From contig JBAZYK010000005.1 of the NCBI GenBank assembly GCA_041659405.1, forward strand, positions 74,283 through 106,282: a DNA stretch of 32,000 bases, given 5' to 3'. This document shows positions 11,085 to 29,997 of this stretch, one piece after another (position 1 is the stretch's first letter; every line of letters begins with the position of its first letter). The position numbers were made by a program, and so were the translations under genes. The stretch comes from Candidatus Altimarinota bacterium. GTDB lineage: Bacteria; Patescibacteriota; Gracilibacteria; UBA1369. The notes under the pieces are model-generated. The model ran no database searches and was not told where the DNA came from. It worked only from the letters and a program-made list of their open reading frames with translations.

Positions 11085-11114
11085 TTGCATTATTAACTGT
11101 ATGCGCGTTAGAAT
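11085..11114 (+). promoter_or_regulatory. Sigma-70-like promoter candidate for the type I R-M operon
   Basis: TTGCAT at 11085-11090, an 18-nt spacer, and TAGAAT at 11109-11114. It lies about 27 nt upstream of the ATG at 11141. Confidence 0.35.
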
Positions 11115-11140
11115 GAGACAGTTTTTTAATTTTGAAAAAA

Positions 11141-12829
11141 ATGCGCCAAGAGATTCAAGAAAAACTCAAAAACATGCCTAATTTGCTTTCTATAGGCCAA
11201 GTTTCGGAGATTTTTGCAATCCATCCGGACACGCTTAGGAATTGGGAGAAAGAAGGCATTCTCGTGCCGTTGCGTTTCGGGCCACGCAAAGATCGCAAAT
11301 ACCGACCACAAGATATTGAAGCAATTGTGGATAAGGTCGGCAGCCAACTGACTCTTCCTCAACTCGAAAGATTTTTGTGGAAAAGTGCGGATATTCTTCG
11401 CGGAAAGATCGACAGTTCAGATTATAAAAAATATATTTTTGGGTTACTTTTTTACAAACGCATCAGTGATGTTTGGGATGAGGAACATGAAAAAGTAATG
11501 AGCGAGTTCAATGATGAAAATCTTGCTAAAGCCGATTACAATCACCGTTTTCAGGTTACGGAAGACTGTAAATGGTCGGTCATAACGCAGCAGGCTGAAA
11601 ATATTGGACCAAAACTTAATGAAATTTTTGATAAGCTTACAAATGCCAACAGCCCAAAGCTTGATAAGATTTTTGATGATCTGGATTTTGCCAATAAGGA
11701 CAAATTCCCGAATGAAACACTTCAAAAGCTGATCAACCATTTTTCGCAGTATAGCTTTGCCAGCAATTATATCAGTTCGGATTTGCTTGGTGATGCTTAT
11801 GAATATTTGATCAAACAATTTGCGGCCGATGCCGGCAAAAAAGGTGGTGAATTTTACACCCCGCGTGAAGTTGAACGCGTTATTATCGAGATCCTCAAGC
11901 CAAAAGAAAAAGATCATATTTATGACCCAACAGTTGGCTCCGGCGGTTTTTTGTTGGAGTCTTATCATTATCTTAAAGCAAAGGCTGGCGAAAAAATTGC
12001 TAATACACTTTATCTTTATGGGCAGGAAGCCAATCTTGGAACCTTTGCTATTTCCAAAATCAACATGTTCTTACACGGCCTTGATAGTGCCGATATTCGT
12101 CGAGGTGATACTTTAGCCAATCCTCAATTTTTAGATGACCTTGGGGCTTTGCAAAAGTTTGATATCGTAGTGGCAAACCCGCCGTATTCAATTAAAGAAT
12201 GGGCAACGGATTTTTTTAGAACTAATAAGTTTGGTCGGCTTCAGGGCTACGATATGCCACCTGAAAAGAATGCCGATTATGCATTTATTCTGCATATTTT
12301 GAAATCACTTAAATCAAATGGTCGTGCGGGCGTTGTGCTTCCTCATGGTGTACTTTTTCGTGGTGGCAGTGAAGGAAGAATCCGCGAACAGATCATCAAA
12401 AACGATTTACTGGAATGTGTTATTTCCATGCCTGCAAAACTTTTTTATGGTGTTGGAATTCCGGTTGCAATTTTAATTTTTAATCCCAGTAAACCGGACC
12501 ACAAAAAGAATAAGATTATGTTTATCGAAGCCGAAAAAGATTATCTGGAAGGCAAAAATCAGAATTCACTGCGCAAACAGGATATTGATAAAATCGTTGG
12601 TACTTATGATTCCTGGAAAGACGTTGAAAAAATCGCCCGAATTGTGGATCTGAAAGAAATTGAAGGAAATGAATTCAACCTCAACGTTCGCCGTTACATT
12701 GATACGAGCGTGGAAGAAGAAAAGATCGATGTGGCTGCCGTTTGGCAGGAATTGCAAACCCTTGAACAAGACCGCGAAAAAATTGACCAGCAGGTGGCGA
12801 GTTATCTTAAAGAACTTAAATATTTTTAA
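11141..12829 (+). CDS. hsdM: Type I restriction-modification methyltransferase subunit HsdM with an N-terminal MerR/excisionase-type HTH extension
   Basis: Methyltransferase motif I is YDPTVGSGGFLL and motif IV is VANPPYS. The HsdM N-terminal domain is LWKSADILRGKIDSSDYKKYIFGLLFYKRISD and the C-terminus is EFNLNVRRYID. The first roughly 65 aa (LSIGQVSEIFAIHPDTLRNWEKEGILVPLR...KYRPQDIEAI) match the MerR-type HTH pattern. The start is ambiguous: TTG at 11132, ATG at 11141, or ATG at 11174. Confidence 0.93.
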   Translation: MRQEIQEKLKNMPNLLSIGQVSEIFAIHPDTLRNWEKEGILVPLRFGPRKDRKYRPQDIEAIVDKVGSQLTLPQLERFLWKSADILRGKIDSSDYKKYIFGLLFYKRISDVWDEEHEKVMSEFNDENLAKADYNHRFQVTEDCKWSVITQQAENIGPKLNEIFDKLTNANSPKLDKIFDDLDFANKDKFPNETLQKLINHFSQYSFASNYISSDLLGDAYEYLIKQFAADAGKKGGEFYTPREVERVIIEILKPKEKDHIYDPTVGSGGFLLESYHYLKAKAGEKIANTLYLYGQEANLGTFAISKINMFLHGLDSADIRRGDTLANPQFLDDLGALQKFDIVVANPPYSIKEWATDFFRTNKFGRLQGYDMPPEKNADYAFILHILKSLKSNGRAGVVLPHGVLFRGGSEGRIREQIIKNDLLECVISMPAKLFYGVGIPVAILIFNPSKPDHKKNKIMFIEAEKDYLEGKNQNSLRKQDIDKIVGTYDSWKDVEKIARIVDLKEIEGNEFNLNVRRYIDTSVEEEKIDVAAVWQELQTLEQDREKIDQQVASYLKELKYF

Positions 12830-13456
12830 ATGGCTTATATATTTTTAGATGAAAGTGGAGATCTTGGATTTGGGAAAAAATCATCAAAGTTTTTTGTTAT
12901 AACATTTCTTTTTGTTGAAAATAAAAGAGTTATCGAGAAGGTTGTTTCAAAAACTCATGCAGAACTTAAAAAAATACATCGAACAAAAAGTGGGATACTG
13001 CATTGCTTCCACGAAAAACCGATTACTCGTCAAAGACTTTTAGCAAGAATAGCTCAAAAGAACTGTATGATTATGACTATTTACCTTGAAAAAGAGAAAG
13101 TTTATACAAAATTACCTGATGAAAAAATTGTTCTTTATAATTATGTAGCAAACATCCTCCTTGATCGTATTTTTAGCAAAAAGCTTCATGGTGATCATAA
13201 AGTCATTTTGATAGCTTCCAGAAAAGAAACTAACAAATTTTTAAATGAAAATTTCAAAAATTATCTTTCAAGTCAGATAAAAAATAATCATCAGATTGAT
13301 CTGCAAATAGAAATCAAGACGCCACATGATGAAAAAGCACTGCAAGCTGTCGATTTTATCAGCTGGTCAATTTATAGAAAATACGAATATAAAGATCACA
13401 ATTATTACGATCTTTTTAAAGAAAAAATCGTGGAAGAAAACCCACTGTATAAATAA
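12830..13456 (+). CDS. DUF3800-like protein
   Basis: The N-terminus YIFLDESGDLG and the C-terminal LQAVDFISWSIYRKY match my memory of the DUF3800 signature (DESG ... LQ-x-x-D). The ATG abuts the hsdM stop (TAAATG at 12827-12832), which suggests translational coupling. Confidence 0.7.
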   Translation: MAYIFLDESGDLGFGKKSSKFFVITFLFVENKRVIEKVVSKTHAELKKIHRTKSGILHCFHEKPITRQRLLARIAQKNCMIMTIYLEKEKVYTKLPDEKIVLYNYVANILLDRIFSKKLHGDHKVILIASRKETNKFLNENFKNYLSSQIKNNHQIDLQIEIKTPHDEKALQAVDFISWSIYRKYEYKDHNYYDLFKEKIVEENPLYK

Positions 13457-13592
13457 CAAAACCCCTTATGCTATTTACGAGCAACCATTCCGGAAGCCCA
13501 CATAAGAGGAATTACTTGTTCTGGTAATAGTATAGCGTGGACTATACCTTGCGGTCAATATCTATAACATTATGAAATTATATAAATAAATT

Positions 13593-13757
13593 ATGGATAC
13601 CAATTTAATGCTAATATCTCACAATAAAAAATTTGACGAAATAAAAGTTAAATCAGCCTTTACATTGGGTAGACAAGATGTTGTGGATCATCTTGCTGAT
13701 ATCAGCAAAGTGATCGTGGGGTGGGTACAATTTGTACCTATCCTTGACGCAAAATGA
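13593..13757 (+). CDS. Possible 54-codon small ORF in the intra-operon gap (doubtful)
   Basis: It runs from ATG at 13593 to TGA at 13755-13757 and encodes MDTNLMLISHNKKFDEIKVKSAFTLGRQDVVDHLADISKVIVGWVQFVPILDAK. It falls below the ORF-track length cut-off. No RBS or recognisable motif is present, so it may be noncoding or a gene remnant. Confidence 0.15.
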   Translation: MDTNLMLISHNKKFDEIKVKSAFTLGRQDVVDHLADISKVIVGWVQFVPILDAK

Positions 13758-13775
13758 GATGTAAATATGGGCTAG

Positions 13776-14228
13776 ATGGTATTATTTGAATCAATTATGG
13801 AATTTAAAAAATTTAAACCTATGAGTATCTACGATGCCGCCAAGGATGCCGCTAAAATCCTACAGGAAGCAGGAAAAATCAATGAATATCAAAAAATTCT
13901 TGATTTGATCGATGATTCATTAAACAAAAGGCATAAGATTGATGAGCTCGAAATGGAAAATCGTGAACTCAAAGAAAAGTTGAAGACCAAAGATGCTTAT
14001 AGCTTCAAAAATAACGCTTATTGGCATAAAGAAACTGGCGATGGCCCTTTTTGTTCAAGATGTTTTGATAAGCATAAGGATTTGATTAGGATTATTCCTG
14101 ATTCTAACAACAGCAGTTGGGCCAAATGCCCTGAATGTAAAAATAGCGTTAATTACACGGGAAAAGAGGTGAAGCCACGAAGTTACAATGTCTCTGGCGA
14201 ACATTTTGATCGATTTTCAGCTATTTAA
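13776..14228 (+). CDS. Hypothetical coiled-coil protein with C-terminal CxxC...CxxC zinc ribbon
   Basis: 150-codon ORF, with an alternative ATG at 13797. A heptad-like charged helix is present (KIDELEMENRELKEKLK), followed by CSRCFDKHKDLIRIIPDSNNSSWAKCPECK. It is the first gene after the 319-nt gap inside the R-M operon. Confidence 0.65.
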   Translation: MVLFESIMEFKKFKPMSIYDAAKDAAKILQEAGKINEYQKILDLIDDSLNKRHKIDELEMENRELKEKLKTKDAYSFKNNAYWHKETGDGPFCSRCFDKHKDLIRIIPDSNNSSWAKCPECKNSVNYTGKEVKPRSYNVSGEHFDRFSAI

Positions 14229-14236
14229 ATTTGTTT

Positions 14237-14911
14237 ATGACAAAAACACCCACACCAAGAAAAACAAGAGATGAATGGCTCAACTTCTGTCAAAGCTATC
14301 TATCATTGGCATTACTTGCCTGCGATGAAATGCTTGCGAAAAAGTATACAGTTAAATTGATGGATGTGGACATTCCAGCATACAGTGTTCCTTCTTTGTT
14401 TTTACCAACTATATATAACATCAAACATGGGCTGGAGGTCTTTCTTAAGACATTAAGAATTATCCTTAACGCCCAGTCTAACCCTAAAGAAGGCAAACAT
14501 AGTAATCTGGAAATTTTTACATTATTAAAAAAAGAAATTGATTCTAAACAAATTCAAAGAGTTATTGAATCAGAATGTAAAAAGAAACCGGATGATACAA
14601 ATCTTAAACTCTTACTGAAAGATCTCGCAAATCTAAGCACTTATGTTGATAAAATAGAAAGCTTAGTCATCAAATATGAACACTGTGAAATAATTAAAAA
14701 CAAAATCCAGACCGATTTTACGATTATTGATGAGGACAACACAGCTTTTCGCTATCCACAAAATAGCCTTCAAATAAAATTAGACTATCATAAAATTTTA
14801 ACAAAAATAACTCCTGAAGATATCCAGGAAATACGGACCGATGCCGAAGCACTTGTAATCAATCTTAACAGTTTAGGGTTCATATTGGATGTTTATAGTC
14901 AGTATAAATAA
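14237..14911 (+). CDS. Hypothetical all-helical protein, possibly HEPN-like
   Basis: The ATG at 14237 is preferred over the TTG at 14231. Three segments occur in the order expected for classical HEPN helices ending in an aRYP motif: IKHGLEVFLKTLRII, KHSNLEIFTLLKKEI and NTAFRYPQN. There is no canonical Rx4-6H. This is a weak call based on memory. Confidence 0.55.
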   Translation: MTKTPTPRKTRDEWLNFCQSYLSLALLACDEMLAKKYTVKLMDVDIPAYSVPSLFLPTIYNIKHGLEVFLKTLRIILNAQSNPKEGKHSNLEIFTLLKKEIDSKQIQRVIESECKKKPDDTNLKLLLKDLANLSTYVDKIESLVIKYEHCEIIKNKIQTDFTIIDEDNTAFRYPQNSLQIKLDYHKILTKITPEDIQEIRTDAEALVINLNSLGFILDVYSQYK

Positions 14912-14924
14912 TATCTTAAAAATC

Positions 14925-15335
14925 ATGCTTACACCGTTAAAAATCACACGAGATAAAGGCGTTGATCTGAAAAGGTTAAATAAGCTTAGAAGGCAAGGCT
15001 TAATTAAAATTTATGATGTAAAAATTGAAAATGAAACATCTAAGGTACCTGATAAGATCTTGCCTGTCGGAGTTTGGGGACATACAAAATGGGACGAGTG
15101 TATATGGGGGGATGAGAAGGATAATACCTTTGATAAGACTCTTGAAATTATTGGAAAAGAAAACATCAAGGATGCTATACATTTAGAAGCACATATCCGT
15201 AATAAATTTGACTATTTTGTTACGAATAATCCAAACGATTTTATTAAAAATGGAAAAAGAGAAAAACTAGAGTTGGAATTTCCTATTTTAAAGATTTTAA
15301 CAATAGAGGAATTGGAAAAAATATGTCAGAAATAA
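14925..15335 (+). CDS. Hypothetical protein with PIN-like C-terminal signature
   Basis: The ATG at 14925 is chosen because the ATG at 14889 would overlap the previous gene by 23 nt. DAIHLEAHIRNKFDYFVTNNPNDFI resembles the D-x-x-H/I-x-A...FvT-x-D-x-x-F end of PIN/VapC-type nucleases. The N-terminal acidic PIN residues are not evident. Confidence 0.55.
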   Translation: MLTPLKITRDKGVDLKRLNKLRRQGLIKIYDVKIENETSKVPDKILPVGVWGHTKWDECIWGDEKDNTFDKTLEIIGKENIKDAIHLEAHIRNKFDYFVTNNPNDFIKNGKREKLELEFPILKILTIEELEKICQK

Positions 15336-15348
15336 TTTTAAGAAACTT

Positions 15349-16500
15349 ATGAATACTTTGATTCAAAATAAAGATATGCAAAAAACTGTTAAATTTGATC
15401 AGCATATAGTTTTAAACTACGGCTCACCTTTGCCAGCAACAGATAGACTTAAAGGTAATTTCCCTGTTTATGGTTCAAATGGCGTTGTCGGTCATCATGA
15501 TCAATTTTTAATTCAAGGACCAGGGATTATTGTTGGGAGAAAGGGAACTATTGGCGCCGTTGTTTGGTCTGAGTCTAGCTTTTGGCCAATTGATACGACT
15601 TATTATATTACTGCTGATGAATCTGTTGATTTACGATGGCTTTATTACAAGTTACAAACTTTAGGATTACAAAAAATGAATATGGCTGGTGGAGTGCCTG
15701 GTTTAAATAGAAATGAAGTTTATAATTTGAAAATTTCTATTCCTTCAAGACAAGTTCAGCAGAAAATTGCAGAAATTTTGTCAAAAGTTGATGAAGAGAT
15801 CGAAAAGGTCGATCATGCCATAGAAAAAACGGAACAGCTCAAAAATGGCCTGATGCAGGATTTGCTGACGAAAGGCATAGGACACAGCAAATTCAAGAAA
15901 ACTGAGCTGGGGGAGATCCCGGAGGAATGGAAAGTTGTAAAATTAAGAGAAAAAACCGTAGGCATTCAATATGGCTTTACTGAGAGCTCTTCAAATCAAA
16001 ATATTGGACCAAAGTTTTTACGCATTACAGACATTGTTGATGGAAACGTTAATTGGGATTCGGTGCCTTATTGTGAGTGCCCAGAAGAACAAATTAATAA
16101 ATATTTATTAAAAAATGAAGATATTGTATTTGCAAGAACAGGCGCGACTACAGGCAAAAGTTTTTACGTCCAAAATCCACTATTTGCAGTTTTTGCGTCT
16201 TATCTTATTAGGGTTATCTTAGACCAAAAGACAGGTTTTGTTTCAAAATTTGTATATTATTTTTTCCAAAGCGACAAATATTGGAAACAAATTAAATCAT
16301 CCATATCTGGAAGCGCACAAGGAGGGTTTAATGCTTCAAAATTGGGTGATTTAAAACTGCCCTTTCCTCCACTTTCTGAACAGTTACAAATATCATCTAT
16401 TTTATCTTCTATCGATGATAGAATGGCTATAAGCAAAAAAGTTAAATCAAAACTTGGACAGCTTAAGGAAGGGTTAATGCAAAATCTTTTTAATAACTAA
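15349..16500 (+). CDS. hsdS: Type I restriction-modification specificity subunit HsdS (two target-recognition domains)
   Basis: TRD1 contains PVYGSNGVVGHHD. The central conserved helix is IPSRQVQQKIAEILSKVDEEIEKVDHAIEKTEQLKNGLMQDLLTKG. TRD2 contains FARTGATTGKSF. The distal conserved helix is LPFPPLSEQLQISSILSSIDDRMAISKKVKSKLGQLKEGLMQNLF. Confidence 0.92.
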   Translation: MNTLIQNKDMQKTVKFDQHIVLNYGSPLPATDRLKGNFPVYGSNGVVGHHDQFLIQGPGIIVGRKGTIGAVVWSESSFWPIDTTYYITADESVDLRWLYYKLQTLGLQKMNMAGGVPGLNRNEVYNLKISIPSRQVQQKIAEILSKVDEEIEKVDHAIEKTEQLKNGLMQDLLTKGIGHSKFKKTELGEIPEEWKVVKLREKTVGIQYGFTESSSNQNIGPKFLRITDIVDGNVNWDSVPYCECPEEQINKYLLKNEDIVFARTGATTGKSFYVQNPLFAVFASYLIRVILDQKTGFVSKFVYYFFQSDKYWKQIKSSISGSAQGGFNASKLGDLKLPFPPLSEQLQISSILSSIDDRMAISKKVKSKLGQLKEGLMQNLFNN

Positions 16501-16506
16501 TGTTAA

Positions 16507-17211
16507 ATGAATTTGATGACTAAAATTAAATTGCCTTATATAGCTGCCCTTTTCGCATTAATAAGCTTTTTATTTGCTTTGGGTATTTCATATAATAATA
16601 TTTTTCAAAATTCCAGTTGGTTTAACACACTCATAAATCCAATTTCTGCAGGAGATAAAAGCTCTATTACTCAAACCTCTTGGACTATTGCGGGATTTTT
16701 CCTTGCGGCTTTTGGATTAAGTGAATTGATAGAAAAGTTAAATCGAAAAATCGCTCCAGGATTCCTGATGGATAGATCTGAGAAAATACTTATAACGTTA
16801 AAATTGCCACCTGCCGTTTTTGATATCAGTTTTAGTGTTGTTAACCGGGGAAATAAATCGTTAAAGCCTGAGGATCATGTCTATTTCCAGTTGTTGATTC
16901 CTTCTGAAATATTTAAGGAGGTACTTTATATTAAATACAATGGTGAAGGTAATTTAATTGGACCACTAAAGAGAGAAAATTCCGTAAAAAATGGATATGT
17001 GACTATTGGTGGCATCATCAATGATGCCATTCACCCTAAAAGATGTATTGAGCAATTTAAGATTAAAATGTCTTTTTCTAAAATCGGGAAATATAAAATA
17101 TTATATTTTTTTAATACAGAGAATGGTTTTTATCCCAAAAAGTATAATGAAATAAATTTAACAGGTTTAGAGGAATTAGAAATAGATGTTGAAAATCAAC
17201 TTACTGATTAA
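16507..17211 (+). CDS. Hypothetical membrane protein (two predicted TM helices plus about 140-aa soluble domain)
   Basis: 234-codon ORF that starts 6 nt after hsdS and ends 8 nt before hsdR. The hydrophobic segments are LPYIAALFALISFLFALGISY and WTIAGFFLAAFGLSELI. I recognise no other motif. It is very AT-rich: 14 G+C in a hand-counted 60-nt sample at 16561-16620. Confidence 0.65.
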   Translation: MNLMTKIKLPYIAALFALISFLFALGISYNNIFQNSSWFNTLINPISAGDKSSITQTSWTIAGFFLAAFGLSELIEKLNRKIAPGFLMDRSEKILITLKLPPAVFDISFSVVNRGNKSLKPEDHVYFQLLIPSEIFKEVLYIKYNGEGNLIGPLKRENSVKNGYVTIGGIINDAIHPKRCIEQFKIKMSFSKIGKYKILYFFNTENGFYPKKYNEINLTGLEELEIDVENQLTD

Positions 17212-17219
17212 ATCTCCTT

Positions 17220-20138
17220 ATGCGCTTCAACGAACAATACACTGTCGAAAATTTTATTCTGGATTTCTTTCAGAAGCCTTTGGGTTATGAATATATTCCG
17301 CCGCAGAAGTTTGCCGCTTTTAGGCAGTTTGAAAATGAGTATGTTATTACTCCCCTTTTGCTTGATGCTGTTAAGAAAATCAATAAAATACATGATGATA
17401 CTGAAGCGCAAAATGTTGTCCGTGAGATTAAAAAGATTGATACAAATGAAGGTTTTTTGAATTTGATGCGGAATGGAATTAACCTGAAAGATCCCGCGCA
17501 GGCAGGTCGCATGCGCGATTATTTTGTGGTCGATTTTGAGAATCTAAAAAATAATCATTTTGTGGTTACAAATCAGTTTTATTTTGAGGGAAATGCGGAA
17601 AATATTCGTCCGGATATTTTGGTGTTTTTGAATGGCTTGCCGATTGCCGATATAGAGGCTAAAAGCCCTACTGCTGCCAATAATGTTAATTATGAAAAGG
17701 CCATTGATCAGCTGAAACGTTACGAGAAAAATGCCTGGAAACTTTTTTTGCCGAACTGTTTTAATGTTGCTACAGATGGCCTTAAAACTGTTTATGGTGC
17801 TACATATAGCCCTAAACAGCACTTTTTACAGTGGCGCGATGATGTATTAGCTCAGTTTTTTGGTGGTGAATTGGAAATGACTTTGGGGGCTCTATTCCAT
17901 AAAGAAAAACTGCTGGATATAATCAAGAATTTTATTCTGTTTGAAAAGGAAAAAGAGCGAACCACCAAAAAGATCTGTCGTTATCAACAATATCGGGCAA
18001 CCAACCTGATTGTGGATCGCGTAAAAGGCGCCGAAAAGAAGCGTGGGCTTATTTGGCACACCCAGGGCAGCGGCAAGAGCATTACGATGTTTTATACAGC
18101 CTGGAAGCTGCGTTTTGATCAACAACTAAAGAATCCAAAGATTTTTGTTTTGGTGGATCGCATTGATCTTGATGATCAGATTTATCAAACATTTACAAAC
18201 TGTGGAGGGGAAAACGTGGTGCGGGTGACTTCACGCAAGGATTTGGAAAGCAAAATTCGCTCACCGGAACGTGGTATTTTCATTTCAACAATTCAAAAAT
18301 TCAGCGAGCTTGAAGACGAAATTAAAAGTCTGGACCACAATACAATTGTCCTTTGCGATGAAGCCCATCGTGATAATGAAGGCGTTGCCGCAATTAACCT
18401 GCGTTCGGCGCTACAGAATGCTTTCTTTTTTGGGTTTACCGGAACTCCAATTGACAAAAAAACTCTCAATACTCATCGCAATTTTGGTGAAGAGGGCGAG
18501 CGTTATTTGGACTATTATTCCATTCAGCAAGCGATTGAAGATGGCACAACCCTGCCGGTAACTTTTGAAGCCCGTCTTTCCAAGTTTTTTATTGATGAAG
18601 AAAAAATTGATCAGCAGTTTGAAGAATTTGCCGCTGATTTAAGCGAAGAGCAAAAAACAAAACTTATTCAAAAATATGGCAAAAAAGCTTCATTGGTAAA
18701 GCTGGATAAGCGCATGGAAGCCATTGCGCAGGACATTGTTGAGCATTATAAGCTTTATGTGGAGCCAAATGGCTTTAAAGCGCAAATTGTTTGCGCAGAC
18801 CGTGAAGCCTGTGTGAAATATAAAAAACTTTTGGACAATTTGATTCCCGCAGATTGGTCGGCCATTATTTACTCTGCAGGCGATCCAAACAGTAGCAATG
18901 AAAGCGAAGAGGAGACAAAAAAATACAATACAACCAAGCCGGAAAGAGAAAGAATGATTGAAAATTTTAAAGATCGTGAAAATCCGTTACGATTTTTAAT
19001 TGTCTGCGACATGCTTTTGACTGGTTTTGATGCGCCAAATGAACAGGTAATGTATTTGGATAAGCCTTTGCGTGACCATAATTTGCTGCAGGCTATTGCG
19101 CGCACAAATCGGGTTTATCCTAATAAGGGTTGTGGGAAAATTATTGATTATTACGGAATCACCCGTAATTTGTATGCTGCGCTGGATTTTGATGAAAGCA
19201 TTGTCAGTTCAGCAATGTTGAATATTGATGAGTTTAAAAAGCGATTTACGGCTGTTTTAGACGAAGTTATGAAGCTATTTAATGGTTTCAACATTGAAGA
19301 TCCTTCTTTGGGGAATTTGCGCAGATGTTTGAAGGTTTTTGTTGATAATGCTGAACAGCAAAACTATTTCCGGACGTTATATACAGAATTAAAACAACTT
19401 TTTGAAATTTTATCTCCTGATCCTTTTTTGAAGGAGCATTTGCGTAAATTTGAATGGTTGACGAGTTTGTTTTTGGCTTTTACTAAAGAATTTGGAGAAC
19501 AAAATGGTGGCCATGAATTGGCGGAATATGGTGAGAAAATGAAGACTTTAATCCAGGAAAATGTTGATTATGAAGGCATTACCAAGAATTTCAGGGAAAT
19601 GCGCATTCATGACATGATGACTTTGCAAAAATTGGAAAAAATGGATGATGAGGAAAAATCTTTGTGCCTTGAAAAAATGTTAGCTCATGAAGTTAGAACA
19701 AATCTTGATTCAGCACCAATTTTTAAGACTTTCAGCGAGCGTCTGCGGACAATCAGGGAAGAATTTGAGAAAAATCAGATTGATTTAGCCGAACGAATCA
19801 AAAAATATTATGATTTGTTGAAGGATATTCAAAAAGCCGAAAAACGCGGGGAAGAGCTTGGCCTTGATCTGCGTGAATATGGTTTATTTGCGATTTCTGA
19901 GGAGTTTATTAAAATTGATCAATCCTTGCTTATCGCGTTTATAAAAGAAATGGCTAAGCGCTTATCTGAATTGTTAGACAAAAACTGGCAGGAATCTTCA
20001 AAAAAAGAAGAGTTTATTAAAGAAATTAAACGAATAATCCAGGAAATGGTTCTTAAAGAATATAAAGACCAGATTATTGTCCAGGATTTTCAAAAATATC
20101 TAAATCGTTTGATTGATGTGATCGTGAAAAAGTTCTAG
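17220..20138 (+). CDS. hsdR: Type I restriction enzyme R subunit HsdR (nuclease plus SF2 translocase)
   Basis: The PD-(D/E)xK-like nuclease motif is PDILVFLNGLPIADIEAKS. The helicase motifs are HTQGSGKSITM (I), LCDEAHR (II), FGFTGTP (III) and QAIARTNR (VI). A long helical C-terminal domain follows. Confidence 0.95.
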   Translation: MRFNEQYTVENFILDFFQKPLGYEYIPPQKFAAFRQFENEYVITPLLLDAVKKINKIHDDTEAQNVVREIKKIDTNEGFLNLMRNGINLKDPAQAGRMRDYFVVDFENLKNNHFVVTNQFYFEGNAENIRPDILVFLNGLPIADIEAKSPTAANNVNYEKAIDQLKRYEKNAWKLFLPNCFNVATDGLKTVYGATYSPKQHFLQWRDDVLAQFFGGELEMTLGALFHKEKLLDIIKNFILFEKEKERTTKKICRYQQYRATNLIVDRVKGAEKKRGLIWHTQGSGKSITMFYTAWKLRFDQQLKNPKIFVLVDRIDLDDQIYQTFTNCGGENVVRVTSRKDLESKIRSPERGIFISTIQKFSELEDEIKSLDHNTIVLCDEAHRDNEGVAAINLRSALQNAFFFGFTGTPIDKKTLNTHRNFGEEGERYLDYYSIQQAIEDGTTLPVTFEARLSKFFIDEEKIDQQFEEFAADLSEEQKTKLIQKYGKKASLVKLDKRMEAIAQDIVEHYKLYVEPNGFKAQIVCADREACVKYKKLLDNLIPADWSAIIYSAGDPNSSNESEEETKKYNTTKPERERMIENFKDRENPLRFLIVCDMLLTGFDAPNEQVMYLDKPLRDHNLLQAIARTNRVYPNKGCGKIIDYYGITRNLYAALDFDESIVSSAMLNIDEFKKRFTAVLDEVMKLFNGFNIEDPSLGNLRRCLKVFVDNAEQQNYFRTLYTELKQLFEILSPDPFLKEHLRKFEWLTSLFLAFTKEFGEQNGGHELAEYGEKMKTLIQENVDYEGITKNFREMRIHDMMTLQKLEKMDDEEKSLCLEKMLAHEVRTNLDSAPIFKTFSERLRTIREEFEKNQIDLAERIKKYYDLLKDIQKAEKRGEELGLDLREYGLFAISEEFIKIDQSLLIAFIKEMAKRLSELLDKNWQESSKKEEFIKEIKRIIQEMVLKEYKDQIIVQDFQKYLNRLIDVIVKKF

Positions 20139-28725: not shown

Positions 28726-29997
28726 ATGGCTGAGGGACTTGCAGAAAGCATAGGCAAAATGCCGAATAAAGATGATCGTGCGGCAATTGAAGCGGTGTTG
28801 CCAAAGGAACAGATGGAAGCGATTCAACGTGGGAAAATCGATGCCGGTTTGGCAAAGTTACAAGGTTCGATTGATGCCAGAATTCAGGGAAAAACTGAAT
28901 TGCATGAGGTTTTGAAAGAAGTCGAAAAAGCTAAGAATTTGGCGGATTTGTCCAAAAAATTAAATGTACTAAAAGAAAGGGTTGATAAATCTTCTCTTTC
29001 TTCCAAAGATGCTTTTATTGCTAGGCTTAAAATCTTGGAAGATAATCTTAAAAAAGTGGATGATCCAAGTTTAATTGAACCAAATCTGAACCAAATTGAA
29101 GCGGAAATAAATCAGCAAGTGGTGGCTCCGGTAAGTCCAAGTCCGGCGCCTGTTGCACCTAATTCCGCGCCAATCGTAGCGCCGGCTCCGGCTGCTGCGC
29201 CTGTTGTTGCGCCTATAGCTGCTACTGCGCCGATCGTGGCTCCGGCTGCTGCGCCTGCGGCACCTACTCCTGCGCCGACCGTGGCTCCTAATGCGGTGCC
29301 AGCGCCAGTGGTCACAGCGGCTCCGGCCACAGCTCCAGCGCCTGCTCCAACTCCAGCACCTGCTCCCGCGCCAACCGCTGCACCAACACCCGCTCCCGCG
29401 CCTACAGCCACTGCTCCTGAAACAACCGCCCCGGTAGCTCCAACGGCACCAGAAACGGCTGCTGAACCCGAAGAAGAAGCTGGTTTCCTTGATAGTCTTG
29501 CTGATGATCCAAAAGTGAAGGAAAGCATTGATAAATTGGGGAAAATCGCAATAATTGGACCGCTTATTCTGTCTATATTCTTTACGAAAACAGCACTGGA
29601 TAAATTAGGGATTAAAGCACCGGAAATGAGCATGAAGGGCCTGGAAGAACTGATGAAAAATTTAAAATTGGACTCTGGTAAGGCTAAAGAATTCAAGGAA
29701 CAAATTCAAAAAAAGATTTTCCCTGATGATTTTGGCGTTAAAGAAGACCTCAAACATTCACCGCCGGTTACTCGTGATATTGTAGCCAAAAGATTGGCGC
29801 TACTTGGTAGCGAAAAAGTGGGCGAGCTCATGAAAAAAGACGAGGTTCCGGGATATGAAAAAGCTGATTGGAAAAATATTAAGGCTTTGCTTACAAAGAA
29901 TGGCGCGAAGGAATCAACAGAAGGCACTGTTTTTGAATTTGTGCTCACACGTTTGTCGGATAAAACAAACCCATGGAAAGCTCCGGAAGCTACTTAA
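28726..29997 (+). CDS. Hypothetical protein with coiled-coil N-terminus, about 115-aa Ala/Pro-rich linker and a hydrophobic segment
   Basis: 423-codon ORF starting 6 nt after the previous gene. A central PAPA-type low-complexity region is present. The hydrophobic stretch IAIIGPLILSIFF follows it. Confidence 0.75.
   Translation: MAEGLAESIGKMPNKDDRAAIEAVLPKEQMEAIQRGKIDAGLAKLQGSIDARIQGKTELHEVLKEVEKAKNLADLSKKLNVLKERVDKSSLSSKDAFIARLKILEDNLKKVDDPSLIEPNLNQIEAEINQQVVAPVSPSPAPVAPNSAPIVAPAPAAAPVVAPIAATAPIVAPAAAPAAPTPAPTVAPNAVPAPVVTAAPATAPAPAPTPAPAPAPTAAPTPAPAPTATAPETTAPVAPTAPETAAEPEEEAGFLDSLADDPKVKESIDKLGKIAIIGPLILSIFFTKTALDKLGIKAPEMSMKGLEELMKNLKLDSGKAKEFKEQIQKKIFPDDFGVKEDLKHSPPVTRDIVAKRLALLGSEKVGELMKKDEVPGYEKADWKNIKALLTKNGAKESTEGTVFEFVLTRLSDKTNPWKAPEAT
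29119..29466 (+). repeat. GC-rich low-complexity coding tract (Ala/Pro/Thr/Val repeats)
   Basis: The codon series GCN/CCN/ACN/GTN encodes VVAPVSPSPAPVAPNSAPIVAPAPAAAPVVAP...APTPAPAPTATAPETTAPVAPTAPETAA. It also generates the spurious antisense ORF at 29112-29696. Confidence 0.85.

What the first reader, a model, noticed from the sequence alone, without database searches (positions are those of the whole stretch)
11085..20138. Type I R-M operon interrupted by six extra co-oriented genes: candidate composite defence island
The gene order is hsdM(HTH-fused) - DUF3800-like - [319-nt gap] - zinc-ribbon protein - HEPN-like - PIN-like - hsdS - two-TM protein - hsdR, all on the plus strand. Junctions are very short: 0 nt (TAAATG), then 8, 13, 13, 6 and 8 nt. 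The only exception is the single gap at 13457-13775. A canonical type I operon needs only M, S and R. Type I R-M loci are established landing pads for additional immune genes. The classic case is the E. coli prr locus, where the anticodon nuclease PrrC is embedded among the hsd genes and is unleashed when phage inhibits the restriction enzyme. The embedded genes here look compositionally distinct. Hand counts of 60-nt samples give 18 G+C at 12830-12889, 19 at 14401-14460 and 14 at 16561-16620. The corresponding counts are 25 at 11801-11860 (hsdM) and 31 at 18001-18060 (hsdR). These are small samples and not statistics. None of the six products matches a named defence system that I recognise, so the set may be an undescribed R-M-linked fail-safe or accessory module.
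Basis: partly seen in the sequence, partly recalled or inferred. Interest (0 to 1): 0.8.

Follow-up and report, generated by a model that had tools for sequence, protein, structure and literature searches.

The report
Type I restriction operon carrying accessory genes
An intact bacterial DNA-restriction operon has picked up several independent extra genes and probably a small RNA; this kind of nesting is already known, but two of the extra gene families are undescribed and sit next to the restriction system's specificity gene in many other genomes.

Summary
On the plus strand of a 'Candidatus Gracilibacteria' MAG the order is HTH-hsdM, DUF3800, a 319-nt gap, a zinc-ribbon protein, p224, p136, hsdS, a two-TM protein and hsdR, with the stated junctions and lower G+C.

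It is a mosaic, not one six-gene system.
- An orthologous operon (HsdM 71% identical) shares only p136.
- p136 is a 136-aa α/β protein with invariant acidic residues and no Pfam, PADLOC or Foldseek match. It lies in type I R-M operons in 11 of 14 loci and directly before hsdS in 8.
- p224 belongs to a family of 225 or more clusters with weak HEPN hits and no Rx4-6H motif. It lies directly before hsdS in 4 of 6 loci.
- p224 and p136 co-occur only here.
- DUF3800 recurs in one other such operon.
- The zinc-ribbon protein could not be traced; the TM protein has no detectable homologue.

The gap starts with an element conserved beside the orthologous DUF3800 gene. It reads best as a minus-strand promoter, a roughly 70-nt RNA and a terminator. 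The Rfam DUF3800-V RNA has the same geometry on a plasmid.

Genes embedded in type I R-M operons are a known phenomenon (PrrC, TgvAB, 'guilt-by-embedding'). This is a new member of that kind, with three leads worth pursuing.

The parts
11132..12829 (+). hsdM, the type I methyltransferase subunit, with an N-terminal MerR-type HTH (aa 18-67)
   Evidence: Pfam N6_Mtase 1.6e-106, HsdM_N 8.7e-27, MerR_1 2.9e-9. TIGR00497 is above its cutoff. PADLOC MTase_I 8e-145. The NPPY motif ('VANPPYS') and the 'DPTVGSGGF' motif are read directly from the translation. A 71% identical ortholog with the same HTH is in L046.
12830..13456 (+). DUF3800 protein (208 aa), RNase H-like fold family. The DE motif (D7-E8) and the QxxD motif (Q172..D175) are present.
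   Evidence: PF12686 6.1e-15, above the gathering score. phrog_9243 2.2e-13. A 49% identical ortholog lies inside another type I R-M operon, L007. The fold and the motifs follow PMC7736814 and PMC10910872.
13450..13558 (-). Candidate small RNA gene convergent with DUF3800. It comprises a promoter (-35 TTGACC at 13558-13553, -10 TATACT at 13534-13529), a ~70-nt transcript (about 13522 to 13450) and a hairpin plus U-run terminator ending at the DUF3800 stop codon.
   Evidence: The element is ~72% identical over 76 nt to the region after the L007 DUF3800 ortholog. The genes themselves are 59% identical in DNA and 47% at third codon positions. The Smith-Waterman score has z=8.2 against 500 shuffles. 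Promoter hexamers are conserved while the spacer is not: 10/12 in the window, 11/12 in L007, alignment. Of 17 predicted pairs, 4 show compensatory changes. DUF3800-V RNA has the same convergent, stop-abutting geometry in L050. No Rfam family matches. Only two sequences are available.
13593..13757 (+). 54-aa ORF inside the gap; doubtful as a gene
   Evidence: Called by public gene callers. It has no family match and no homolog in any fetched locus. It overlaps strong predicted hairpins: the gap folds with z=-4.4.
13776..14228 (+). ZnR150: a coiled-coil N-terminal half and a C-terminal four-cysteine zinc ribbon (CxxC...CxxC)
   Evidence: phrog_1244 4.6e-9. Weak DUF7837 hit at 2.9e-4, below the cutoff. 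The cysteine motifs are read directly. No relatives in phages or viral contigs.
14237..14911 (+). p224: all-alpha protein of an undescribed family with distant HEPN (PF05168)-like signals. Invariant residues are H64, E67, K71, H88, D165, N168 and P174.
   Evidence: 225 representative clusters at E<=1e-3. 14 of 72 members hit Pfam HEPN, best 3.8e-5, but the window protein itself does not. Homologs lie directly 5' of hsdS in L029, L044 and L045. The AF2 model is unusable, pLDDT 50.
14925..15335 (+). p136: small alpha/beta protein of an undescribed family. Invariant residues are T8, D10, D83, D96, Y97, F98 and T100; E35 and D105 are nearly invariant.
   Evidence: 31 homologs. AF2 pLDDT 88.9. No Foldseek hit at E<1e-3 in PDB or BFVD. 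No Pfam hit. Faint VapC/PIN NCBIfam hits in 3 of 31 members. It lies inside type I R-M operons in 11 of 14 loci and immediately 5' of hsdS in 8.
15349..16500 (+). hsdS, the specificity subunit with two target-recognition domains
   Evidence: Methylase_S 9.9e-39 with two stretches. PADLOC Specificity_I 1.9e-69.
16507..17211 (+). TM234: orphan protein with N-terminal hydrophobic helices and a ~150-aa C-terminal domain
   Evidence: The only hit among 5.8 billion proteins is itself. No family hit. A hydrophobic segment at 9-27 is scored. A second segment at about 58-77 is read by eye.
17220..20138 (+). hsdR, the restriction/translocase subunit, apparently intact
   Evidence: HSDR_N 7e-35, SWI2_SNF2 3.7e-71, T1R_D3-like and T1RH-like_C. 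TIGR00348 1.4e-166. PADLOC REase_I 5.9e-137, covering model positions 8-1004 of 1029. The Walker A ('GSGKS') and DEAH ('CDEAH') motifs are read directly.

Best explanation
This is a working-looking type I restriction-modification operon (HTH-HsdM, HsdS, HsdR) that has accumulated at least three independent accessory cassettes at its M|S and S|R junctions.

**Cassette 1.** A DUF3800 RNase H-like protein plus a convergent ~70-nt small RNA with its own promoter and terminator.

**Cassette 2.** ZnR150, p224 and p136. p224 and p136 each belong to a family that, on its own, habitually sits immediately upstream of hsdS in other type I operons.

**Cassette 3.** An orphan membrane protein between hsdS and hsdR.

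**Inferred mechanism (not shown).**
- HsdM2S methylates host DNA and HsdR2M2S cuts unmodified DNA, as the first line of defence.
- The nested genes are co-transcribed second-line effectors of the abortive-infection or toxin type. They would be nucleases with conserved polar or acidic sites, plus a membrane protein.
- These would act when restriction fails.
- The DUF3800 protein would act with, or be held in check by, its neighbouring RNA.

The set is a mosaic assembled by cassette exchange, not one co-evolved six-gene machine.
For: **The M, S and R genes look intact.** All expected domains are present and the catalytic motifs are readable.

**The inserts are a mosaic.**
- The orthologous operon L046 (HsdM 71% identical, same HTH) has only a 169-aa protein plus p136 between M and S, and different genes after S.
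- L007 has DUF3800 and p136 but in a different order, alongside AbiTii and a second DUF3800.
- Profile searches find p224 and p136 together only in the window.

**The families recur in type I R-M operons.**
- p136 lies in type I R-M operons in 11 of 14 loci. In 7 of them its stop overlaps the hsdS start by 4-16 nt.
- p224 relatives lie directly 5' of hsdS in 4 of 6 loci.

**The company is defence-related.** Neighbours include AbiTii, Shedu SduA, an OLD-like or AAA_21 ATPase, NERD, M78+DUF4411 and RhuM.

**The small RNA is supported** by conservation above the coding level, conserved promoter hexamers, compensatory pairs, and the DUF3800-V precedent with the same geometry.

**There is published precedent for nested genes.**
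- PrrC: PMC12707154.
- TgvAB: PMC11411939.
- 'Guilt-by-embedding', which includes type I R-M: bioRxiv 10.1101/2024.01.29.577857.
- HEPN families in R-M operons: PMC3710099.
- PIN-like genes in R-M operons: PMC5499597.

**The inserts and hsdS have lower G+C** than the rest of the operon and the flanks.
Against: - No activity is shown for any component.
- None of the inserts matches a validated or candidate defence model in PADLOC.
- The nuclease assignments are weak.
  - p136 has no PIN hit in Pfam or Foldseek.
  - p224 lacks the Rx4-6H motif and could not be modelled.
- ZnR150 and TM234 could not be placed in any comparative context.
- The small RNA rests on two sequences only.
- The very tight, repeated coupling of p136 to hsdS suggests more than passive co-location. 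It fits the guardian or accessory-subunit rival better than pure mosaicism.
Confidence: 0.65

Rival explanations
1. p136, and perhaps p224, is not a free-standing passenger. It is a dedicated partner of the restriction complex. It could be a PrrC-like guardian held inactive by HsdM/S/R and released when a phage blocks restriction, or a fourth accessory subunit made in step with HsdS.
For: - p136 homologs lie almost only in type I R-M operons: 11 of 14 loci.
- In 8 of those they sit immediately 5' of hsdS, and in 7 the genes overlap by 4-16 nt, which suggests translational coupling.
- p136 is the only insert shared with the orthologous operon L046.
- Its neighbours on the other side are unrelated to one another, so hsdS is the constant partner.
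- Payne et al. report that PrrC is likewise almost exclusive to type I R-M.
Against: - In L009 p136 lies after hsdR. In L007 and L015 another gene separates it from hsdS.
- L011, L014 and L016 show no hsd genes on their (short) contigs.
- p136 has no ATPase or other sensor domain.
- No interaction data exist.
- The position could simply reflect a recombination hot spot at the M|S junction.
Confidence: 0.25
2. The six inserts form one integrated, co-evolved fail-safe system.
For: - The genes are co-oriented with 0-13-nt junctions.
- They share low G+C.
Against: - No other locus carries the set.
- The ortholog L046 shares one of the six inserts, and L007 shares two, in another order.
- p224 and p136 never co-occur elsewhere.
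- TM234 is an orphan.
- A convergent promoter and terminator splits the array after DUF3800.
Confidence: 0.05
3. The inserts are selfish addiction modules (toxin-antitoxin pairs) or decaying mobile-element cargo. They stabilise the island and give no anti-phage benefit.
For: - The proteins are small with conserved polar sites.
- Gene pairs overlap in related loci.
- The antisense RNA convergent with DUF3800 resembles type I/III TA layouts. A chance-level cmscan hit to the SR6 antitoxin reflects only the terminator shape.
- The composition is low in G+C and looks foreign.
- A published view links PIN toxins to R-M loci.
Against: - The ORFs are intact and their invariant residues are conserved across 31 and 72 family members.
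- No transposase or integrase lies in the block.
- The neighbours in related loci are validated defence genes.
Confidence: 0.15

Closest known systems
Defence genes nested in type I R-M, BREX and DISARM operons ('guilt-by-embedding', Payne et al. 2024, bioRxiv 10.1101/2024.01.29.577857; TgvAB in Vibrio cholerae VPI-2, PMC11411939)
   Same: - Extra co-oriented genes sit between hsdM, hsdS and hsdR.
- The content varies between related operons.
- The inserts encode predicted nucleases or RNases and membrane proteins.
- They keep company with known defence genes.
   Different: - None of the inserts here matches a PADLOC HEC/PDC or other model.
- The p136 and p224 families are undescribed.
- p136 shows a fixed position next to hsdS, which is more specific than general embedding.
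PrrC / RloC anticodon nucleases in the E. coli prr (EcoprrI) locus
   Same: - An effector gene is embedded in a type I R-M operon.
- Such families are almost exclusive to that context.
- The idea is a second line of defence released when restriction is blocked.
   Different: - PrrC is an ABC-ATPase fused to a HEPN nuclease with an Rx4-6H motif.
- No insert here has an ATPase.
- p224 lacks the Rx4-6H motif.
- Nothing here shows interaction with the restriction complex.
DUF3800 genes with associated RNA motifs DUF3800-I to -XI (Weinberg et al. 2017, PMC5737381; Rfam)
   Same: - A DUF3800 gene is flanked by a conserved structured non-coding element ending in a terminator.
- The geometry is convergent and abuts the stop codon, identical to DUF3800-V in plasmid CP013100.1.
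- There is a shared UAA-containing 5' segment.
   Different: - No Rfam DUF3800 model matches, even at E<=10 on a 131-nt query.
- The element is shorter (~70 nt).
- It lies inside a type I R-M operon.
- It is supported by only two sequences.
PIN-like toxins coupled to type I R-M subunits (Matelska et al. 2017, PMC5499597) and HEC-03 (ABC ATPase + PIN)
   Same: - A small protein with four conserved acidic positions is transcriptionally coupled to hsdM/hsdS.
- In L017 a p136 homolog follows an AAA_21 ABC-type ATPase, as in HEC-03.
   Different: - p136 gives no Pfam PIN hit and no Foldseek match to any PIN structure.
- In the window there is no ATPase and no recognisable antitoxin.
Classical HEPN domain (Pfam PF05168) and HEPN families embedded in R-M operons (Anantharaman et al. 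2013, PMC3710099)
   Same: - p224 is an all-alpha protein of ~220 aa.
- 14 of 72 relatives hit PF05168.
- Its conserved E..K, H-D and RYP-like segments resemble that family (the resemblance is from my own knowledge).
- It lies in an R-M operon.
   Different: - The window protein itself has no Pfam hit.
- There is no Rx4-6H motif.
- There is no nucleotidyltransferase partner.
- The fold is not confirmed.

Membership tests
Type I restriction-modification system | HsdM with HsdM_N and an N6-adenine methylase domain carrying the AdoMet and NPPY motifs | tested here: met
   Pfam and NCBIfam hits are above their cutoffs. The motifs are read directly from the translation.
Type I restriction-modification system | HsdS with two target-recognition domains | tested here: met
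   Methylase_S matches in two stretches at 9.9e-39. PADLOC Specificity_I 1.9e-69.
Type I restriction-modification system | HsdR with an N-terminal nuclease, SF2 helicase motifs and a C-terminal domain | tested here: met
   HSDR_N, SWI2_SNF2, T1R_D3-like and T1RH-like_C. TIGR00348 1.4e-166.
Type I restriction-modification system | Methylation and ATP-dependent restriction activity | not testable with these tools
   Needs methylome sequencing or plasmid restriction assays.
DUF3800 (PF12686) | Profile match above the gathering score, with the N-terminal DE motif and the C-terminal QxxD motif | tested here: met
   56.6 bits against a cutoff of 21. 'FLDESGD' and 'QAVDF' are read. The motif definition comes from PMC7736814.
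Rfam DUF3800-I to -XI RNA motifs | Covariance-model match at or near the gathering score | tested here: not met
   No DUF3800 motif was reported at E<=10 in the window or in L007. The positive control, DUF3800-V, was found in L050.
DUF3800-associated RNA (general class) | A conserved structured non-coding element adjacent to a DUF3800 gene | tested here: inconclusive
   Conservation has z=8.2. Promoter and terminator are conserved, and 4 pairs show compensatory changes. Only two sequences are available.
HEPN superfamily (p224) | Profile similarity to a HEPN family | tested here: inconclusive
   14 of 72 relatives hit PF05168 (best 3.8e-5), but the window protein does not. There is no PDB sequence hit.
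HEPN superfamily (p224) | Rx4-6H catalytic motif | tested here: not met
   Position 172 is R in 47 members and K in 25, followed by Y-P-x-N with no histidine. The invariant histidines are H64 and H88, elsewhere in the protein.
HEPN superfamily (p224) | Four-helix up-down HEPN fold | tested here: inconclusive
   The AF2 model from two sequences has pLDDT 50 and is unusable.
PIN-like superfamily (p136) | Profile match to a PIN-clan family | tested here: not met
   No Pfam hit in 31 members at E<=1. Only faint NCBIfam hits: VapC at 0.0076 in 1 member, and the RSP_2648 PIN family at 0.1 in 2 members.
PIN-like superfamily (p136) | Structural similarity to PIN domains | tested here: not met
PIN-like superfamily (p136) | Three or four conserved acidic residues at strand ends or helix starts | tested here: met
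   D10, D83 and D96 are invariant. E35 and D105 are conserved in at least 90% of members. They map after strand 1, after strand 2, at a helix start and around strand 3 of the model.
PrrC / RloC | N-terminal ABC ATPase fused to a C-terminal HEPN anticodon nuclease | tested here: not met
   No ATPase domain was found in any insert, and no PADLOC PrrC or RloC hit.
Known or candidate defence systems in PADLOC-DB 2.0.0 | A model hit for any embedded protein | tested here: not met
   There were 0 families for DUF3800, ZnR150, p224, p136 and TM234 at E<=0.1.

The most novel reading that the evidence does not exclude
Two linked possibilities remain open.

1. p136 defines a previously unrecognised fourth component of a subclass of type I R-M systems. 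It would be made in step with HsdS and act as a built-in guardian or effector when restriction is blocked.
2. The DUF3800 protein and its convergent ~70-nt RNA form an RNA-dependent (guided or RNA-restrained) nuclease cassette used as nested immunity. That would give the long-unexplained DUF3800 RNA motifs a biological context.
Probability: 0.2. Interest if true: 0.7.

Novelty: new member of a known kind. Interest (0 to 1): 0.5.

Why it matters
Nested genes in restriction operons have proved a productive source of new anti-phage systems. This locus adds two uncharacterised protein families, p136 and p224, that are absent from Pfam and PADLOC. Both have an unusually strict position next to hsdS across many uncultivated lineages, which makes them good candidates for experimental testing.

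The locus also offers a new example of the unexplained pairing of DUF3800 genes with small RNAs, possibly a twelfth RNA type. Here the pair sits inside an immune operon, which points to a defence role for that pairing.

If p136 proves to interact with the restriction complex, it would be a second PrrC-like guardian principle, built on a different protein.

Tried and rejected
**Alternative genetic code.** The MAG is labelled Gracilibacteria, so I considered code 25 (UGA = Gly). I rejected it. All 27 long genes are intact under table 11, with full-length profile coverage. TGA ends 2 of them.

**Large-database searches.**
- The TM234 search found only the protein itself.
- The word-indexed search for p224 found just one relative. 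The exhaustive profile search was needed to reveal the family.

**Structure.**
- The p224 model failed, with pLDDT 50.
- Foldseek of the p136 model against PDB and BFVD gave nothing significant.

**Profile comparisons.**
- Comparing p224 with the AbiTii, DUF5677 and RNxxxxH proteins that flank p136 elsewhere showed no relationship.
- An all-against-all BLAST of the p136 neighbours showed only one small TM family shared by L015, L047 and L048.

**Searches of other collections.**
- tblastn of p136 and p224 against plasmids, and of ZnR150 against phages, gave no match.
- Viral-contig scans for relatives of DUF3800, ZnR150 and p136 found none.
- The p224 alignment was too diverse to scan with.
- A DNA-pattern scan of viral contigs for the conserved gap element returned only chance matches of the terminator-plus-RBS type.

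**Other checks.**
- Direct repeats flanking the inserts are only short AT-rich chance matches.
- Small membrane proteins appear in 10 of 11 p136-bearing operons on a crude hydropathy scan. I do not treat this as enrichment, because the background expectation is high.
- The promoter and terminator scans are at or near shuffle expectation overall. Only the conserved minus-strand site is used as evidence.

Full report
**1. Observation**

All genes are on the plus strand:
- hsdM 11132-12829
- a DUF3800 gene 12830-13456
- a gap 13457-13775
- a 150-aa zinc-ribbon protein 13776-14228
- a 224-aa protein 14237-14911 (p224)
- a 136-aa protein 14925-15335 (p136)
- hsdS 15349-16500
- a 234-aa hydrophobic-N-terminus protein 16507-17211 (TM234)
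- hsdR 17220-20138

The junctions are 0, 8, 13, 13, 6 and 8 nt.

Profile searches confirm the three R-M subunits with full domain sets. They also confirm the MerR-type HTH on HsdM and the DUF3800 assignment. PADLOC recognises only M, S and R.

Per-gene G+C is 0.287-0.347 for the five named inserts and 0.352 for the 54-aa ORF in the gap. It is 0.345 for hsdS, 0.395 for hsdM and 0.376 for hsdR. The flanking PolX and endonuclease IV genes are 0.426 and 0.447, and the other window genes range from 0.35 to 0.47.

The window is identical to contigs of a MAG labelled 'Candidatus Gracilibacteria bacterium'. The standard genetic code fits: all long genes are unbroken under table 11.

There are three small corrections.
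- The hsdM ORF cannot begin at 11085.
- Gene callers put a 54-aa ORF in the gap.
- hsdS shares the low G+C of the inserts.

**2. The inserts are not one module**

*p136.* The protein has 31 relatives. I recovered 14 distinct genomic contexts for close homologs.

Eleven of these lie in type I R-M operons:
- the window
- L005: TPR protein, p136, hsdS
- L007: AbiTii, p136, 267-aa protein, hsdS, DUF3800, DUF3800, hsdR
- L009: M, S, R, 269-aa protein, DUF5677, p136
- L015: hsdM, p136
- L017: hsdM, AAA_21 ATPase, p136, hsdS
- L018: TM protein, p136, hsdS, Shedu, hsdR
- L046
- L047
- L048
- L049

In eight of these p136 is the gene immediately 5' of hsdS. In seven the two genes overlap by 4-16 nt.

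Three short contigs (L011, L014, L016) show no hsd gene.

The genes on the other side of p136 are unrelated to each other.

L046 is a true ortholog of the window operon. Its HsdM is 71% identical over 552 residues, including the HTH. Yet it has only a 169-aa protein and p136 between M and S, and different genes after S.

*p224.* The protein looked almost unique in the word-indexed search. An exhaustive profile search found 225 representative clusters.

In the six contexts I could read, four have the p224 homolog directly 5' of hsdS:
- the window
- L029: RVT_3, p224, hsdS
- L044: hsdM, 305-aa protein, p224, hsdS, M78 peptidase, DUF4411, AAA_14, hsdR
- L045: hsdM, RhuM, p224, hsdS

The other two are outside R-M but sit beside Fic, DUF559 and AlbA_2 genes.

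*Co-occurrence and the rest.* Profile scans of all fetched loci show that p224 and p136 co-occur only in the window. DUF3800 recurs in one other type I operon, L007, at 49% identity. TM234 has no relative among 5.8 billion proteins. ZnR150 matches only an uncharacterised phage family, phrog_1244, and I could not trace it further.

The picture is a mosaic built from cassettes that each favour type I R-M operons.

**3. What the proteins are**

*DUF3800.* The window protein has the DE and QxxD motifs of the family. Published modelling assigns the family an RNase H-like fold. Retron type VII and a Cas12a2 sub-branch also use it.

*p136.* It gives a confident model (pLDDT 88.9) of a small three-layer alpha/beta domain.
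- Invariant residues are T8, D10, D83, D96, Y97, F98 and T100. E35 and D105 are nearly invariant.
- This acidic pattern, and the C-terminal 'DYFVTxDxDF' segment, resemble minimal PIN-like nucleases. That resemblance is from my own knowledge.
- However, Pfam finds no PIN family in any of the 31 members.
- NCBIfam gives only faint VapC/PIN hits in three members.
- Foldseek finds no PIN structure; the best hits are generic Rossmann-like domains.
- I therefore call it an acidic-site alpha/beta protein of unknown family. A nuclease role is inferred with low confidence.

*p224.* It is all-alpha.
- Fourteen of 72 relatives hit Pfam HEPN PF05168 (best 3.8e-5), but the window protein does not.
- Its invariant residues are H64, E67, K71, H88, D165, N168 and P174, with an [RK]-Y-P segment.
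- The canonical Rx4-6H motif is absent.
- The structure prediction failed.
- 'HEPN-like' is therefore a weak lead.

**4. The gap**

Weinberg et al. (PMC5737381) reported eleven unrelated RNA motifs next to DUF3800 genes. These occur in either orientation, and several carry terminators.

No Rfam model matches the window gap. Even so, the first ~100 nt after the DUF3800 stop align with the region after the L007 ortholog.
- Identity is about 72% over 76 nt.
- The coding DNA is only 59% identical, and 47% at third codon positions.
- The local alignment score has z=8.2 against 500 dinucleotide shuffles.

On the minus strand both loci show four features in the same order.
- A strong sigma-70-type promoter sits at the same place. 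The window has TTGACC-18-TATACT, a 10 of 12 match. L007 has TTGACA-17-TATTAT, an 11 of 12 match and the best in its region.
- The promoter hexamers are conserved but the spacer is not.
- A conserved 5' segment follows (…AAGUAA[U/A]UCCUC…).
- A branched hairpin with compensatory changes comes next, then GGGGUUUU and a U-run that ends at the DUF3800 stop codon.

As a positive control I examined a DUF3800 gene on plasmid CP013100.1. The Rfam DUF3800-V RNA lies there on the opposite strand, abutting the stop codon, which is the same geometry.

I conclude that the 'single exception' gap most likely holds a convergent ~70-nt small RNA gene of the DUF3800-associated class. It is not a member of any curated motif. 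I put this at about 0.6, because only two sequences support it.

The rest of the gap (13560-13775) folds strongly, with z=-4.4. It contains the doubtful 54-aa ORF. I did not resolve it.

**5. Mechanism**

*Shown:* intact R-M subunits; recurrent embedding of three insert families in type I operons; a conserved non-coding element with promoter and terminator features.

*Inferred:*
- The R-M enzyme provides first-line restriction.
- The nested genes are co-expressed second-line effectors of the abortive-infection or toxin type.
- The DUF3800 protein works with, or is restrained by, its RNA.
- The M|S junction is a preferred slot for cassette exchange.

The main rival is that p136 is functionally tied to the restriction complex as a PrrC-like guardian or accessory subunit. 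Its near-exclusive and translationally coupled position before hsdS makes this credible, at about 0.25. It is not excluded by the mosaic reading.

**6. Comparison with what is known**

Embedding of defence genes in type I R-M operons is established:
- PrrC
- TgvAB
- the systematic 'guilt-by-embedding' survey, which includes type I R-M
- HEPN families in R-M operons
- PIN-like genes in R-M operons

The locus is therefore a new member of a known kind. Three things are new: the p136 and p224 families with their positional rule, a DUF3800-RNA pair inside an R-M operon, and an orphan membrane protein at the S|R junction.

Overall interest is moderate. The phenomenon itself is unsurprising to a specialist, but the locus gives concrete, testable candidates.

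Noticed in passing
window 13450-13558 (minus strand); L007 6626-6731 (minus strand): A conserved promoter, ~70-nt RNA and terminator unit lies convergent with DUF3800 and abuts its stop codon. It matches no Rfam family. Its geometry is the same as the DUF3800-V RNA on plasmid CP013100.1 (L050 7663-7761, minus strand).
   Followed up: partly
window 13560-13775: The remainder of the gap folds far better than shuffles (whole gap z=-4.4). It contains two strong hairpins inside a 54-aa ORF (13593-13757). That ORF ends in TGA six codons before a TAG that abuts the next gene's ATG. Its function is unresolved.
   Followed up: no
window 11132-11340 (HsdM aa 1-70); L046 4844-5050: HsdM carries an N-terminal MerR/HTH_17-type DNA-binding domain. 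The domain is conserved in the 71% identical ortholog, which suggests built-in transcriptional autoregulation of the R-M operon.
   Followed up: partly
L007 5761-5789 (minus strand): A second near-consensus minus-strand promoter (TTGACA-17-TAGAGT) lies just after the stop of the other DUF3800 gene (277 aa) in L007. This hints that convergent antisense transcription is a general feature of these DUF3800 genes.
   Followed up: no
L005, L007, L009, L015, L018, L046, L047, L048, L049 (genes flanking p136 or hsdS): Ten of eleven p136-bearing type I operons, counting the window, also encode a small predicted membrane protein next to p136 or hsdS. One such family is shared by L015, L047 and L048. This was a crude hydropathy scan, and enrichment was not tested.
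   Followed up: partly
L007 2989-3792: The 267-aa protein between p136 and hsdS in L007 has an 'RNIKSAH' (Rx5H) HEPN-type motif and a C-terminal hydrophobic helix. It has no Pfam or PADLOC hit.
   Followed up: no
L017 5009-6869: An AAA_21/OLD-like ABC ATPase is followed by an overlapping p136 homolog between hsdM and hsdS. This is the same layout as published ATPase-plus-nuclease pairs such as HEC-03, PARIS or Septu.
   Followed up: partly
window, all genes: The MAG is labelled Gracilibacteria, a lineage known for reading UGA as glycine. Here, however, all genes are intact under the standard code. TGA ends only 2 of 27 ORFs: PolX and the doubtful 54-aa ORF.
   Followed up: partly
window 29000-29500: The G+C spike (0.574) is an Ala/Pro/Thr-rich low-complexity linker, with a 24-nt tandem repeat at 29221-29288, inside a 423-aa protein (28726-29997).
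   Followed up: yes
window 12815-12851: An imperfect 19-nt tandem duplication (CTTAAATATTTTTAAATGG, 1.9 copies) straddles the hsdM stop and the DUF3800 start. It could be a recombination scar or chance in AT-rich sequence.
   Followed up: no
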